Under the pieces are notes generated by a model. It did no database searches, had not been told where the DNA came from, and saw only the letters and a list, made by a program, of their open reading frames with translations. This document shows, in pieces, positions 4,147 through 55,850 of a DNA stretch of 64,000 nucleotides. A program made the position numbers and the translations under genes. Source of the DNA: Eledone cirrhosa (Eukaryota); the NCBI GenBank assembly GCA_964016885.1, contig OZ024745.1:56172001-56236000 (forward strand), in the 5' to 3' direction. Position 1 is the first letter of the stretch; the number at the start of each line of letters is the position of its first letter.

Positions 4147-4301
4147 TTCATTATTTCTGAAGACGGCATATATATGTGTTTGGTATGTATATTTAATTTT
4201 GATAGTTTGTATAATTTTGTATAATTTTGTACATAGATCTGATGAATATGCATGCCAATTCTAACACATATATATCCTAGAAACGATCGTTAAATAATGA
4301 A
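4147..4301 (+). ncRNA. type I hammerhead ribozyme with greatly extended stem II (family L, copy 1)
   Basis: Stem I TTCATTATTT/AAATAATGAA; core CTGAAGA (4157-63); long stem II (ATATATATGTGTT/AACACATATATAT and TGGTATGTATATT/AATATGCATGCCA); GAAA (4280-83); palindromic CGATCG; TT. Confidence 0.75.
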
Positions 4302-5229
4302 CTTTTTTTGTTTAATATAAGGAACTGTTTCATTGTTTTATTCATTATTTTTTTAATATTTTATCTTGACTCTGTATTCCGTTTATCTTTCACCGAAAGT
4401 GATTTTTCATTGCATCTCTTCTTTCCATGATATCCGGATTACATTGAGTTCTTCATACGGATTGGACACTACCGTAAACTCTTGGTAGATTTATCTACAT
4501 ATATATATATATATATATATATATATATATATATATATATATATATATATATAATTATTTAATACAATAACAGAGAAAGCTTTAAGCTAAACTCCGACTG
4601 GTAACCATCTCACTCAACAAACATTAGGTTATACGTTAGTATAATCCCAATTTAGTGTTTGGGGTGCTAACTATATGTATTTTGTGGAAAGCCAGTTGTA
4701 TTATTTTATATGAGATATAATTAAAGTTAAAATATATCTCTCTTTCCAAATAATTGTTTCATTATAAGTTTTCTACAAGTTGGGAGAAAGTTTGCAGTTT
4801 ATGTAGAAGCCTAACATATTTTCCTGTGAGAATATATGTAGGTGGGCACTTATAAATCGTCAGTGGATGCCCATTAAACTTTGATATGAGAAAAAAATTC
4901 CTTACCGCAGTTAATTTTCGTGTCCGCTAAGTTGTCCCTTCACGCATCGAATGATATGTATATACATATATACATATATATATATTAATAAATTTTATGA
5001 AGGCAGGTTCTATTTTCCATACTTTACTTTAATTTCTGCAATACCCAACCGTTATGTGCATTTCAGTGAAACTTTCCACTTGCTGAGAAACAGTAACAAA
5101 GGCAGGCACATCTTTATTTATTATAATTTTGCTAGTAAACAAAGCTGGTGTTATAATAAACCGAAGCAAGTAGGGCGTTGATCGTACAGAATTCGGAGAA
5201 ATAGAAATATATATATATATATATATATA

Positions 5230-5352
5230 TATAACAAAGAGTGTGTGGTAAGATACCAGGTACATCATAACGCACCAGAGTACTCAATACTGTTCGGATC
5301 TAGCTGTCTAAACGGCCGGCGCTCAGACGTCGGGGTCCGGACACTTTTTATA
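5230..5352. mobile_element. diverged fold-back fragment of PLE family A termini
   Basis: Diverged family A 3' tail (-) joined to the 3' half of the HHR (+); flanked by (TA)n. Confidence 0.6.
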
Positions 5353-5433
5353 TGTATATATATATATATGTATATATATATATATATATATATATATATA
5401 TATATATATATATATATATATATATATATATAT

Positions 5434-6010
5434 ATAGTAATAATAATAAATTTGAAGACTAAAATCCAAAGAGGGTTCGATAGGGATAAATATATATCAA
5501 ATATTTAAGAACCGTAGAGCAAATATTTATTAAAATGACAGATTAAAGTTTAAGCAAAAAATCGCTGCTTTCACCCTTAACGGGATCTTCTGAAACCAAC
5601 AAAGTTAATCTGTGAACGCAGAAGTGAATATTTCAAAAAACGTTGCAACCGAAGGACGACAGGAAGACGATACTTTGGTTCGTGGAAACGTTCCCTGGCA
5701 AAGAACGGGAAAAAACGTCATTATTTGGAGCGGTGAAAATCAATTACACGCAAAGACAAAACCACCTTTATGGTATAAAAGAAGTCGTAGACTAATATTC
5801 TATTAGGTGGTTCATAGAGACATTCTCTGGCAATGAACGAAAAAAACGAAGATAATACATCATATGTGGAGTGGGAAGAACAATTGCACGCAATGATAAA
5901 ACCACGTAAATGGTATAACTGAAGTCGTAGACTAAAATTCTAACTAGGAAACCGAATGATTCTCGGCTTCAGAGTTAAGAATAAAGTAAATAAAATACAG
6001 AGGTAATTGA
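5434..6010 (-). mobile_element. PLE family B 3' end (5'-truncated)
   Basis: Homologous to 22815-23240 and 25440-25645; abuts (TA)n; internal ~130-bp duplication. Confidence 0.75.
5539..5612 (-). ncRNA. hammerhead-like motif with CAGAAGA core (family B)
   Basis: CAGATT...GTTT-CAGAAGA-TCCC gttaa GGGT-GAAA-GCA..TGC-TT-AAAC..AATCTG. Confidence 0.6.
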
Positions 6011-6376
6011 AATTAAATAAATACATACACGCATCCATATACGTACATACACAAGCATTTGTATCAACCATATATAAATATAAATATTCGTATTACTATA
6101 TATATATATATATATATATATATATATATATATATATATATATATATATATATATATATATTTCGTTTCTGAATTTGTTTAGCAAGATTCTTTATCTGAA
6201 ATCGTGTGTTGAAACCGATATTGTTATACTTTGGGAGGGTCATGTTGCCAATAAGAAACACACGCACCAGTTGCTTTCACTTCAATTTAATTTATTAAAT
6301 ATTTATAAATTTACAAATTTATAAATTTCTGGTTGGTTGGTTGGTTCCACAACCAGATAGTTGTTTATATATATAT

Positions 6377-6421
6377 AGTCATAGTTCTTTCGTCACACAC
6401 TCTGTGACCTCTTCAGTGACT
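6377..6421 (-). ncRNA. minimal type I hammerhead ribozyme (family N1)
   Basis: Inverted copy of 7678-7722. Confidence 0.8.
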
Positions 6422-6702
6422 GGGGATTTCTTTCTTCGTTTCTGTGCCTTTCCTTTCTTCTATCCTACGCCATTTTGTTTGTGTGTGGGTTGCGTGCTCA
6501 GTTTGCGCATGCGCCACATCCGGGTGTCTGTGTGTGTTTGTGTTCATTTTTCTATTTTTCTATTTATATTTTTCTATTTGTTTGTTTATTTATTTATTTA
6601 TTGTTGGTTGGTTGTTTGTTCTATGTGTGTGTGTGTTTTCATTTTGTGTGTGTTTTCAATTGTAAGTTGTTTGTTCTGTGTGTGTGTGTTTTCATTTTGT
6701 CC

Positions 6703-53325: not shown

Positions 53326-54009
53326 ACATGGTTCAATCCTCCCCACAACGCCGAGGTGACAACTCCCATCGGGAAAATTTTCTTTAGGCTCATTGAAAAA
53401 CACTTCCCACCACAACACCGCTACCACAACATAATTAACAAAAATACCATCAAACTCTCTTACAGCACTACACCTAACTTCGCACAAAACATCGTCTCCT
53501 CCAACAACAAAAAACTCAACCCCGATGGAAGAAACAACCCAAATAGCAGTGGAGAGCCGACCAGGAGGTGCAATTGTCCTGATAGATCCAGTTTCCCCCT
53601 CGACAACAGATGCAGAGACCGTAATGTGATCTACCAGTGCAACGTGAGCACGGACACCTCCAACAAAGCTTATATAGGATTAACCGCATGTGACTTCAAG
53701 ACCCGGCTATACCAACACAGACATACCTTCCGAAACCCGGCCCGGCGTCACGCCACTACATTTTCGGGCCACATATGGGACCTCAAGGACAACAATATCA
53801 ACTATGATCTCACTTGGAAATTACCGTCCAGAGCCAACTCTTACACCGGGGGACGCCGTCCGTGCAATTTATGCTCGGAGGAAACTTTACAAATGCTGTT
53901 TTCGACGGACCAACTCCTAAACAAGAAAGATGAACTGGTTACTGCATGTAAACACCGATTACGTAGGACTTACCTCGCCCTCAAACCCCATAATGACCCG
54001 GGGGGGTAG
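53326..54009 (+). pseudogene. GIY-YIG endonuclease fragment, PLE family A
   Basis: Nearly identical to the C-terminal ~225 aa of 16877-19030. Confidence 0.9.
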
Positions 54010-55066
54010 ACTAGGGCTATAACACCCCACTTGCCTATTTTGTAATGGGTAACCCCTGCTTGCCAATGGAGACGTAGATCTTCTTTTACATTCTTTTATC
54101 GCTTCCTCTATATTTCCTTCTTCCCACCATCCCCCCCTAGTCCTTCTACCCCAGTTCCTTTTCTTTGTCGTCGTCTTTTTCTCGCCCACCCGAGGTAGCC
54201 CCCCGGTCCCTTGTAGCTTCAACACCCCCACCCCCTTCCCCTATTCTATGATAGATTTGGCTGACTCTGCTTTTTATAGCAGAGGTGTTAGACTTTGGAT
54301 ACTTGCCCCCTTCTCCGACCGATGTCCCTTTTTTCCGTGCCTTCTATATTTCTTAGTGGCATCTTTGCTTAAATTTCTCGTTTATCCAGTATTTCTTTCT
54401 TCTTTTTCCCTTTTGTTTAGGGGGGGGGGTCTGTATTAATTTTCCGTTCTTTACTTTTACTTCGTACGATCTTTCATGTAGCGTGTATAAGACTTTTTGT
54501 TTCGTGGCGGTACCCTTAGAGTGAGCACTAGTATTTTTTTGCGGGTCCCTAAATTATATTCTCGTACTAGTTTACTTTCTTGCACTGGGTGGTTGCTGGC
54601 CCTGTGATTGGGGTAGAAACCTATATTATTTCGTGGCAGTCTCTTTAGTATTTTATTCTTCATTATATATATTTTTAAATTTATTTATCTATTCTTTTAT
54701 TCACGTATTTGTTTATTTATTTATTTATGTATTTCTTTAGCCTAGCAATAGCGAGAGACTTAAGTCTTAGTAACCAGACTTTGCTTATTTTTTTTCTCTC
54801 TCAGTACTGTTTATAGTTTTACCTTTCTTTGTTCTACTTACCGTTTCGAATTCCTCCCCCTCCCTCTCCCCAGTATACATTTGACCTCACGCCCAGCTGT
54901 AGCCGGCACTACCAACGCATGAATGGGTCTACTCCACCCCCTCTCCCTTTTTCTCCTACCGGCAGGTTTAGCTACCCCTTCCCCCACCAACTTGCCATCA
55001 CCGATTTACTACTAACTTGTGATGTGACCAATCCTGGTGATTGTCTCTTTGACCATATATGGAATT

Positions 55067-55160
55067 ACCCCTTGATAAGCTCGGCTATTTAAATACCAGA
55101 ATAAATTTTCATTCAGTCCAGAATTAGCCGTCGAAACGGCTTGAGCTCAGCCGTCGGGGT
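55067..55160 (+). ncRNA. type I hammerhead ribozyme, U3:A8 variant (family A)
   Basis: ACCCC-TTGATAA-..CGGCTA...TAGCCG..-GAAA-CGGCT tgagctc AGCCG-TC-GGGGT. Confidence 0.8.
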
Positions 55161-55222
55161 CTTACTTGTTCGTATATATATATATATATATATATATATA
55201 TATATATATATATATATATATA

Positions 55223-55592
55223 TATAATAGTAAAAGGACGAATTGTTAGGCCTTCATTACGTTTATTGAGTAGTGACGCGTGTTTCGCTATTGATCAGTT
55301 CAAGGTTCGATCTGTATCGATATGGCTCGACTCTGGAAGCAAACGCTCGTCAGACCTCTGCTGAGGTCCGGCCAGCTTTTGATTCCACAATCGGGCCAGT
55401 CGATACAGATCGAACCTTGAGCTGATCAATAGCGAAATGCGTGTCTCTACTCAATAAACGTAATCAAGGCATATTCGTCCTTTTACTATTATATTTACAC
55501 TCTGCTCTAGTCCTACACCTCGTTACAGACGGGAAACTATGCATCGAGTGCTCACTTGGGTGTATCTACAGTAACAGCACGTTACACCCCCG
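55223..55592. mobile_element. fold-back terminal fragment of another HHR-bearing family
   Basis: ~110-bp diverged inverted arms (55223-55338 / 55381-55492) plus a one-sided tail to 55592; (TA)n flanks. Confidence 0.75.
55268..55358 (-). ncRNA. type I hammerhead with enlarged stem II
   Basis: GAGGT-CTGACGA-GC..~55 nt..GC-GAAA-C acgc G-TC-ACtaCTC. Confidence 0.6.
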
Positions 55593-55638
55593 ATATATAT
55601 ATATATATATATATATATATATATATATATATATATAA

Positions 55639-55850
55639 ATGTGAGAAAAACCACAGACCCTCCATCTCAACTCACCTTTTGAAAAACAGAAGAACTGCGA
55701 AACCGGTAAAGGAACCAAATAAATATATATATATTTTTTTTAAATAAGACTCCAGTTGCATTTTCGATTTCATCTCTTTTTCTTTATACTTTCACTCGTG
55801 TAGGACACCTCGTTTATTTTTTATTTTGTAAAAAAAACCTCACTTTCTAA
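55639..55850 (+). mobile_element. ~210-bp HHR-bearing non-autonomous element (family S)
   Basis: Second copy of 39837-40048. Confidence 0.8.
55675..55712 (+). ncRNA. minimal type I hammerhead, U3:A8 variant (family S)
   Basis: CCTT-TTGAAAA-aCAG aagaa CTGc-GAAA-CCGG-TA-AAGG. Confidence 0.7.

What the first reader, a model, noticed from the sequence alone, without database searches (positions are those of the whole stretch)
4147..55712. A dense hammerhead-ribozyme retroelement community living in (TA)n microsatellites
Seen: about 20 type I hammerhead folds from about 10 sequence-unrelated families (4147, 20271; 5539, 22926, 25560; 6377, 7678, 50813; 15671, 19610, 55067; 22353; 26155; 39975, 55675; 45244, 49572; 50276; 55268), nearly all near the end of an insert bounded by microsatellite. 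Some belong to autonomous PLEs (A, B, N1, N2); others sit in ORF-less units (26155, family S, family L, fold-backs). Known: PLE pseudo-LTRs carry type I HHRs, and animal non-LTR retrozymes are thought to use PLE machinery. Inference: this is a PLE driver plus ribozyme-passenger system with unusual core diversity, which protein-based annotation and strict CUGANGA descriptors would largely miss.
Basis: partly seen in the sequence, partly recalled or inferred. Interest (0 to 1): 0.85.

Follow-up and report, generated by a model that had tools for sequence, protein, structure and literature searches.

The report
Hammerhead-tipped Penelope retroelements flooding TA repeats
The ribozyme-like folds are real and mostly mark the ends of broken Penelope-type retrotransposons inserted into TA microsatellites; this animal genome carries an estimated 130,000-260,000 of them, and one protein-free 422-base repeat shows the same insertion footprint, so it is likely copied by the Penelope enzyme.

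Summary
All 19 listed sites belong to type I hammerhead families. They form 15 insertions, because four pairs are two arms of one insertion. My relaxed scan passes 11 of 19; the rest are decayed or have a very short helix. The folds far exceed shuffles and show compensatory pair changes.

The interpretation needs correcting. Families L, S and the 50276 fold-back are the 3' ends of ORF-bearing Hydra- or Neptune-type Penelope-like elements (PLEs), not passengers. Only the 422-nt repeat at 26155 is shown to lack an ORF. It is a non-LTR retrozyme whose copies end at two fixed sites 54 nt apart, join (TA)n and form inverted arms, which is the PLE footprint.

The window is typical of its genome. A sample of 98 x 10 kb extrapolates to about 130,000-260,000 folds. 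U3:A8, U-U at 10.1:11.1, C4 and (TA)n targeting are published. A fixed A4 core, C-A at 10.1:11.1, 100+ nt helix II inserts, a 4-kb microsatellite-like 3' UTR and this density were not found in my searches. Cleavage and expression are untested. Unchecked scan notes report a similar PLE footprint for tRNA-bearing repeats in other genomes.

The parts
563..4498 (+). Family L: 5'-truncated 3' UTR of a Hydra-type PLE. The body is TA/TG-microsatellite-like but conserved between copies; 3' tail 4365-4498
   Evidence: L094 holds pseudo-LTR + ORF + this UTR
4147..4301 (+). Type I hammerhead: CUGAAGA 4157-4163, C-A at 10.1:11.1, 116-nt helix II domain, palindromic helix III, H17 at 4291
5437..6036 (-). 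Truncated 3' end of Hydra-type family N1; hammerhead with A4 core CAGAAGA (5592-5586), U-U at 10.1:11.1, H17 at 5552
6161..7877 (.). Two-armed PLE fragment with GIY-YIG ORF end 6703-7224 (-); hammerheads 6377-6421 (-) and 7678-7722 (+), one-base insert after A9
15092..15495 (.). Two fold-back 3' ends of family A that hold only the 3' half of the hammerhead
15579..19715 (-). Hydra-type PLE A: 5' pseudo-LTR 19123-19201, open frame 16877-19207 (776 aa stop to stop), 3' UTR, 80-nt tail, inverted arm 19202-19715; U3:A8 hammerheads 15671-15764 (-) and 19610-19703 (+)
20213..20486 (-). Second subfamily of family L; hammerhead core 20394-20388, H17 at 20277, helix I mismatch in this copy
22270..22634 (+). 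3' end of a Hydra-type family (5' limit not mapped); decayed hammerhead, core 22362-22368, H17 at 22392
22827..25656 (.). Degenerate two-armed Hydra-type PLE N1; A4 hammerheads, core 22979-22973 (-) and 25580-25586 (+, helix II decayed)
25907..26565 (-). Non-LTR retrozyme: 1.56 copies of a 422-nt ORF-less monomer between (TA)n runs; hammerhead 26174-26216, H17 at 26180; 54-nt tail 25907-25960
38817..39014 (.). Fold-back 3' end of family A (half hammerhead plus tail)
39838..40048 (-). Family S: truncated 3' end of a Neptune/Nematis-type PLE; U3:A8 hammerhead, core 40008-40002
40306..42937 (+). Hydra-type PLE N2 with its own unlisted hammerhead (UUGAAAA 42790-42796, U-U at 10.1:11.1, H17 at 42883)
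45044..49872 (.). Neptune/Nematis-type PLE B: open frame 47112-49310 (+), 2-kb inverted arm, 44-nt tail; hammerheads with a 2-bp helix I, core 49583-49589 (+) and 45289-45283 (-)
50126..50345 (.). Fold-back 3' end of a Hydra-type PLE; hammerhead core 50280-50286 with copy-specific GAGA
50661..50928 (-). 3' end of the 7678 family; C4 hammerhead 50813-50853
53286..55171 (+). Truncated copy of an A subfamily; U3:A8 hammerhead, core 55072-55078
55226..55592 (.). Fold-back unit with a long-helix-II hammerhead: CUGACGA on the left arm (55353-55347, -), decayed core on the right arm; ORF link unresolved
55639..55849 (+). Family S 3' end; U3:A8 hammerhead with A-C at 10.1:11.1

Best explanation
The folds are type I hammerhead motifs at the 3' ends of Hydra- and Neptune-type Penelope-like retrotransposons and of one protein-free 422-nt tandem repeat, all joined to (TA)n, and the Penelope enzyme likely copies both kinds into TA microsatellites. 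Shown by sequence: the folds, their covariation, the links to ORFs, fixed 3' ends (two of them, one family-specific tail apart, in most families), and inverted arms with a tail on one arm only. Inferred from published PLE work: the GIY-YIG endonuclease nicks (TA)n; reverse transcription starts at either of two internal sites 17-273 nt downstream of the predicted cleavage site, runs through the hammerhead and usually stops early or switches strand. That leaves many short, ORF-less, often fold-back ends that each keep a hammerhead, which is why the motif is so abundant. Predicted and untested: the hammerheads cut tandem transcripts, mostly as dimers through their palindromic helix III, to give unit-length RNAs or circles; the retrozyme circle would be the template used in trans.
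For: Fold: 13 hits vs 1.08 shuffled. Background: 66 hits vs 1.3 shuffled and 1 in reversed sequence at score >=13. U4 in 84 of 89 and C3:G8 in 82 of 89 hits although N4 and the 3:8 pair were left free, with all four bases seen at N7. Family L shows double changes in helix I pair 5 (U-A 50, C-G 27 of 79) and helix II pair 7 (A-U 51, G-C 26 of 79). Frequent retrozyme variants inside the hammerhead fall only on N7, loop II and both sides of one helix I pair. ORF links. (TA)n lies within 300 nt downstream for 59 of 61 background hits, against 37% of random positions in the same loci. Retrozyme 3' ends: 28 of 30 true termini in the first set and 40 of 45 in copies met by chance lie at the two fixed sites. 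Tail on exactly one arm in 6 of 6 two-armed insertions with both ends at TA and 7 of 8. Literature: the tail is the stretch between two RT start sites (PMC11167929); inverted arms, tails and (TA)n preference (PMC8557442).
Against: Cleavage and expression were not observed. PMC11167929 found hammerhead cleavage unnecessary for PLE insertion in vitro and no RNA-seq reads ending at the cut site. Li et al. 2026 saw no cleavage in 8 of 9 Xenopus retrozyme dimers. Young families carry features expected to weaken catalysis: A4 in 56 of 64 N1 copies, a 2-bp helix I in family B whose 40 scored copies are identical over 176 nt, and A-C at 10.1:11.1 in about half of the S copies. Retrozyme 5' ends show no pile-up at the cut site, which fits circles but equally fits uncut RNA. 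No autonomous PLE sharing the retrozyme's 3' end was found in the loci held. The covariation counts rest on few independent events and include overlapping loci.
Confidence: 0.75

Rival explanations
1. The elements and their spread are as described, but the hammerheads no longer cleave in any way that matters. They persist as hitch-hiking or protein-binding structures near the RT start site.
For: A4 fixed in a family with 3,137 first-look candidates; a 2-bp helix I in a very young family; 41 of 89 sampled folds have a mismatch at 10.1:11.1; PMC11167929 (cleavage not needed in vitro); Li et al. 2026 (8 of 9 dimers inactive).
Against: The catalytic nucleotides, not only the helices, are kept across 29 sequence clusters while N7 varies. 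Helix III is palindromic in 55 of 89 folds, as dimeric cleavage needs. U-U and U3:A8 variants are reported as natural, tolerated variants (PMC3088659, PMC7229834).
Confidence: 0.25
2. One reading: a few PLE drivers carry many unrelated ORF-less ribozyme passengers (L, S, fold-backs, 26155) in a local nest.
For: Within the window these units have no ORF. Only 56 of 255 loci show a same-strand PLE ORF within 1.5 kb upstream. Family 55268 shares about 900 nt upstream without a clear ORF.
Against: L, S and 50276 continue into PLE ORFs elsewhere. The window's density equals the genome's.
Confidence: 0.08
3. The 422-nt repeat is a satellite that spreads by recombination, or a SINE-like element moved by a microsatellite-targeting LINE, not by a PLE.
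For: It forms long tandem arrays on C11 and C28. No PLE partner with a shared end was found. Dong-R4 LINEs are listed as recently active in Octopus vulgaris (PMC13282606); their microsatellite targeting is recalled, not checked.
Against: Two fixed 3' ends with an optional tail, and inverted arms with the tail on one side, match the PLE families beside it. PMC11167929 calls the tail unique to PLEs.
Confidence: 0.1

Closest known systems
Hydra-clade Penelope-like elements, including Hydra-1_Obim of Octopus bimaculoides (Craig et al. 2021, PMC8557442)
   Same: C-terminal GIY-YIG; DKT and CxCX5C motifs; (TA)n insertion; pseudo-LTR, inverted arm and optional tail; type I hammerheads. Three Hydra hammerheads in their File S2 already show U-U at the base of helix II.
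   Different: Family L is about 7 kb with a ~4.3-kb microsatellite-like 3' UTR, whereas Hydra elements are described as generally <3 kb. Tails are 44-137 nt against 30-40 bp. Helix II domains reach 54-116 nt in the window's families; the File S2 Hydra rows I saw have loops of 4-9 nt.
Minimal and variant PLE hammerheads (Cervera & de la Pena 2014, PMC4209133; Perreault et al. 2011, PMC3088659)
   Same: U3:A8 covariation, an extra base between 9 and 10.1, palindromic helix III, 2-bp helix I (Drosophila virilis), U-U at 10.1:11.1, U4C, and mostly solitary truncated copies.
   Different: G10.1-C11.1 is called highly conserved there but is present in only 18 of 89 sampled folds here. A fixed A4 core and C-A or A-A at 10.1:11.1 were not in the passages I read. 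The counts there are 2,000-9,000 per genome.
Animal non-LTR retrozymes (Cervera & de la Pena 2020, PMC7229834; Li, Clavereau & Pollet 2026, 10.64898/2026.07.22.740005)
   Same: 150-450 nt tandem monomer, low GC, one type I hammerhead per unit, no ORF, highly self-paired; U-U at the base of helix II as in axolotl HHR_Amex2; proposed dependence on PLEs.
   Different: Those papers argue the PLE link from shared ribozymes, co-occurrence and pseudo-LTR homology. Here the insertion junctions themselves carry the PLE tail, inversion and (TA)n target. The axolotl has 126,247 motifs in about 28 Gb (about 4.5 per Mb), against an estimated 43-88 per Mb here, counted with a different descriptor.
PAc, the Poseidon PLE of Anolis tested in vitro (Frangieh et al. 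2024, PMC11167929)
   Same: Two internal RT start sites that define the genomic tail; a hammerhead upstream of them.
   Different: No biochemistry here; different clades; (TA)n target.

Membership tests
Type I hammerhead ribozyme | Core C3/U3-N4-G5-A6-N7-G8/A8-A9, G12-A13-A14, A15.1-U16.1 and H17 in type I order | tested here: met
   Cores and H17 located at all 19 sites. 10 of 19 have strict CUGANGA, 5 have U3:A8, 1 has C4, 3 have A4; the 50276 copy has GAGA.
Type I hammerhead ribozyme | Three helices, above chance and supported by covariation | tested here: met
   The minimum-energy fold of 4147 and of 19610 contains all three helices. Few independent covariation events; no R-scape run.
Type I hammerhead ribozyme | Self-cleavage 3' of H17 | not testable with these tools
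   Needs a cleavage assay.
Hydra-clade PLE (elements A, N1, N2, L, 50276, 22353) | C-terminal GIY-YIG with CxCX5C linker, DKT, RWK-like motif, CxxC and CxH | tested here: met
   Read by eye in the translations: element A has DKT, CxCX5C, RWR for RWK, CxxC and CxH; L has DKT and CxCX5C. The others are assigned by tblastn similarity only. Motif list from PMC8557442 section 11.
Hydra-clade PLE (elements A, N1, N2, L, 50276, 22353) | (TA)n insertion and a hammerhead near the 3' end | tested here: met
Hydra-clade PLE (elements A, N1, N2, L, 50276, 22353) | Generally short (<3 kb); a typical trait, not a diagnostic one | tested here: not met
   A is about 3.6 kb and L about 7 kb.
Hydra-clade PLE (elements A, N1, N2, L, 50276, 22353) | RT phylogeny within the clade | not tested
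   No reference sequences were available as tool-held data; no tree was built.
Neptune/Nematis PLE (B, 7678 family, S) | CX2-5CxxC linker before a C-terminal GIY-YIG with CCHH; DKG-type motif | tested here: met
   By eye: B has CX4CxxC and DKS; S has CX4CxxC, DKG and a GxKF motif. Pfam: weak RVT_1 below cut-off in B, GIY-YIG above cut-off in the 7678 element.
Neptune/Nematis PLE (B, 7678 family, S) | Neptune versus Nematis by RT tree | not tested
   No tree built.
Animal non-LTR retrozyme (26155 unit) | 150-450 nt tandem monomers, each with a type I hammerhead | tested here: met
   422-nt period; arrays on C11 and C28. A 482-nt subfamily array in L221.
Animal non-LTR retrozyme (26155 unit) | No ORF, GC <50%, highly self-paired as a circle | tested here: met
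   Longest frame 53 aa, GC 38%, 68% paired, z = -6.5 against 60 shuffles; part of this comes from internal palindromes.
Animal non-LTR retrozyme (26155 unit) | Expressed as linear and circular monomer RNA | not testable with these tools
   Needs RNA data from this organism.
Non-autonomous passenger (families L, S, 50276) | No RT ORF in any copy | tested here: not met
   L094, L383/L384 and L294/L245 carry PLE ORFs upstream.
Non-autonomous passenger (family 55268) | No RT ORF in any copy | tested here: inconclusive
   Hydra-type ORF pieces lie upstream in L135 and L385, but their continuity with the unit is unclear.

The most novel reading that the evidence does not exclude
This genome is the densest natural hammerhead library yet seen, about 2 x 10^5 motifs in dozens of families. 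Variants thought to be crippling (A4, C-A or A-A at 10.1:11.1, 100-nt helix II inserts) still cleave. Its 422-nt retrozyme, about 1% of the sampled DNA, is a circular RNA copied in trans by a TA-targeting Penelope RT-endonuclease from two defined start sites, which gives the first ready-made driver/passenger pair for reconstituting retrozyme mobilisation.
Probability: 0.3. Interest if true: 0.72.

Novelty: new variant of a known kind. Interest (0 to 1): 0.5.

Why it matters
Whether animal retrozymes are moved by Penelope enzymes, and what PLE hammerheads do, are open questions. This genome offers young, apparently intact RT-EN frames (A, B), a very abundant retrozyme with base-precise start sites and a known target, so both questions can be tested directly. 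It also supplies a large natural set of helix II and core variants for mapping what a hammerhead tolerates. Helix-strict descriptors and protein-only annotation would undercount such motifs.

Tried and rejected
Rfam scan at E <= 10: the 150 rows shown were microsatellite-driven matches, mostly to miRNA models, and none was a hammerhead; 131 rows were not shown. A tight descriptor found nothing. I first read 55268 as a half hammerhead; a relative in L274 and the family tally reversed that. I first took family L for a giant ORF-less element and took the ORF upstream in L294 to be family S's; searches corrected both. Naiad was considered for element A and rejected, because its endonuclease is C-terminal. 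RNA runs: no RNA holder listed for the retrozyme, which says nothing on expression; only contigs could be laid. The apparent cluster of retrozyme 5' ends at monomer position 276 is a low-complexity masking artefact. L216, a satellite with a doubtful U3:A8 fold, was set to zero in the weighted estimate but is included. The window hit at 57504 is treated as chance. Lunse et al. 2017 (PMC5785218) was not held, so variants reported there could overlap with those I call unreported. No R-scape run, covariance model or tree was made. The scan's notebook held nothing for this genome.

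
Full report
Setting. The window is G000:C5:56172001-56236000 of a 3.0-Gb assembly. It is a patchwork of inserts separated by (TA)n runs. It looks like an octopod genome, but that rests on a recalled SINE motif and on a by-eye likeness to Hydra-1_Obim; no call names the organism.

Are the folds there? 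A tight descriptor found none, and Rfam showed no hammerhead in the 150 of 281 rows printed. Reading the sites by hand showed why: an extra base after A9, a mismatch at 10.1:11.1, U3:A8, or a long helix II. A descriptor allowing these, tuned after I had seen the candidates, gave 13 hits at score >=9 against 1.08 in shuffles. Eleven are listed sites and one is an unlisted hammerhead at the end of element N2 (42790-42883). Cores and predicted cut sites for all 19 sites are. For the decayed window copies the family is intact elsewhere. In the 50276 family, positions 4 and 5 are invariant in 48 of 48 copies and GAAA is the norm. The 55268 family has C3 in 24, G5 in 25 and A9 in 27 of 27 copies. 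The 22353 family shows all four bases at N7 and C or U at N4. The 19 sites are 15 insertions.

Selection on the fold. Among 79 family L hammerheads (overlapping loci included), helix I pair 5 is U-A in 50 and C-G in 27, and helix II pair 7 is A-U in 51 and G-C in 26. C-A at 10.1:11.1 is present in 79 of 79, although both bases were part of the anchor pattern. These are two double changes between two subfamilies, not dozens of events. The related 7678 and 49572 families differ by two compensated pairs in helix II. In the retrozyme, the frequent variants inside the hammerhead fall only on N7, loop II and both sides of helix I pair 3.

What carries them. Elements A, N1 and N2 have Hydra-clade motifs or similarity; B and the 7678 element have the Neptune/Nematis linker (motif definitions from PMC8557442). 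Family L is not ORF-less. L094 holds a pseudo-LTR equal to window 4331-4498, a frameshifted Hydra-type ORF, a ~4.3-kb 3' UTR whose TA/TG-rich body aligns between copies, the hammerhead and an inverted arm. Family S is the 3' end of a Neptune/Nematis-type element (L383, L384). The 50276 fold-backs are truncated, inverted ends of a Hydra-type element (L294, L245). Family 22353 has Hydra-type ORF ends upstream in 8 of 30 loci. Family 55268 is unresolved. Six families (L, A, B, 50276, the 7678 family and the retrozyme) have two fixed 3' ends one tail apart, 44-137 nt long; N1, S, 22353 and 55268 show mainly one end in the loci held. PMC11167929 explains such tails as two internal RT start sites.

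The retrozyme. The 26155 unit is 1.56 copies of a 422-nt monomer with no frame over 53 aa, 38% GC and a strongly paired circular fold. It is dispersed and also forms arrays (232 first-look candidates, 40 scored). It makes up about 1% of the 980-kb background sample, about a third of that from one array. In the 30 best loci, 16 termini are tail->(TA)n, 12 are no-tail->(TA)n and 2 are other; I set aside the internal-palindrome matches and locus edges in that output. In copies met by chance, 40 of 45 non-edge, non-internal 3' ends lie at the same two sites. Two-armed insertions carry the tail on one arm only in 6 of 6 and 7 of 8. The 5' ends are scattered and many copies run through the cut site, so the template is circular or uncut. 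No autonomous partner was found.

Is the window special? No. In 98 stretches of 10 kb placed at fixed intervals over 27 large contigs, there were 90, 66 and 43 hits at score >=12, 13 and 15. Shuffles gave 3.3, 1.3 and 0 and reversed sequence gave 1, 1 and 1; the window has 6, 3 and 3. The 89 hits at >=12 fall into 29 clusters. Of these 89, 79 have strict CUGANGA, 18 have G10.1-C11.1, 41 a mismatch there, 19 a helix II domain over 40 nt and 55 a palindromic helix III. The score penalises A4 and G4, so such cores are undercounted. (TA)5+ lies within 300 nt downstream of 59 of 61 hits, upstream of 37 of 61, and downstream of 37% of random positions.

Against a catalytic role. No cleavage or RNA was observed. 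Young families tolerate A4 (56 of 64 copies), a 2-bp helix I (family B, 40 identical copies) and A-C at 10.1:11.1. PMC11167929 found cleavage dispensable in vitro. Li et al. found 8 of 9 dimers inactive.

What is in print. PMC4209133 (parts 1-2 of 4 read): U3:A8, the 9/10.1 insert, palindromic helix III, 2-bp helix I and the circle model. PMC3088659 (passages): U-U at 10.1:11.1, U3:A8, U4C. PMC7229834 (passages and section 15): retrozyme definition and 126,247 axolotl motifs. PMC8557442 (passages, section 11, supplement rows): Hydra clade, (TA)n, Hydra-1_Obim and U-U hammerheads. Li et al. 2026 (parts 1-3 of 5): retrozymes as PLE derivatives; its supplements are closed and could list junction features. 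PMC11167929 and PMC6765202 (passages). PMC13282606 (passages): no occurrence of 'hammerhead' or 'ribozyme' in the main text of the Octopus vulgaris repeat annotation. Searches for octopus + hammerhead ribozyme, cephalopod + self-cleaving ribozyme, retrozyme + microsatellite + Penelope + tail, G10.1/C11.1 variants and searches listed no report of this density, of A4 or C-A cores, or of PLE tails on a retrozyme. I saw most of those papers only as listings, and Lunse et al. 2017 was not held.

Verdict. The system is a known kind, PLE hammerheads plus a retrozyme in (TA)n, and the many-passenger reading is mostly wrong. The new elements are the scale, several fixed non-canonical variants, a Hydra-type element with a 4-kb microsatellite-like UTR, and junction-level evidence that a retrozyme uses PLE machinery. 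New variant of a known kind; interest 0.5.

Noticed in passing
window 42790-42883 (+): Unlisted hammerhead at the 3' end of Hydra-type element N2 (U3:A8, U-U at 10.1:11.1, 75-nt helix II domain); one relative in L123.
   Followed up: partly
window 11254-11439, 13884-14084, 23240-23347, 29076-29436, 31776-32182, 35889-36090, 51058-51257, 56354-56769, 63077-63233: A ~200-bp SINE-like repeat, single or tandem, in nine places, one of them inside PLE N1. It recalls an octopod SINE (from memory).
   Followed up: no
window 1249-3541; L092, L094: What looks like a 2.3-kb degenerate microsatellite is copied as part of family L's 3' UTR, so this PLE spreads microsatellite-like DNA, including runs of its own target repeat.
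   Followed up: partly
L221:169-3716: Array of a 482-nt subfamily of the retrozyme, with N7 = U and a changed helix I pair.
   Followed up: partly
L216: Satellite in which many units pass the descriptor as a weak U3:A8 fold with an A/T-rich helix II; doubtful, left out of the weighted estimate.
   Followed up: no
L190, L223, L224, L234, L249, L254, L261, L277 and others: The commonest hammerhead cluster in the genome sample (24 of 89; 10-12 bp helix I, AT-rich palindromic helix III) does not occur in the window; its host element was not traced.
   Followed up: no
runs X4, X5, X6 laid on window 26057-26390: The retrozyme or a close relative is also held by runs of three other coded organisms (contigs only).
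   Followed up: partly
L384:4194-5324 (-): The family S element has a 406-aa open frame upstream of the RT region, either an ORF1 or a long N-terminal extension.
   Followed up: no
window 40096-40164: A fragment of the N1 family end sits next to the family S copy.
   Followed up: no
window 43555-43953 and 29693-30067: A weak 400-nt palindrome (66% identity), and a 124-aa frame without a Pfam hit that may be a LINE remnant.
   Followed up: no
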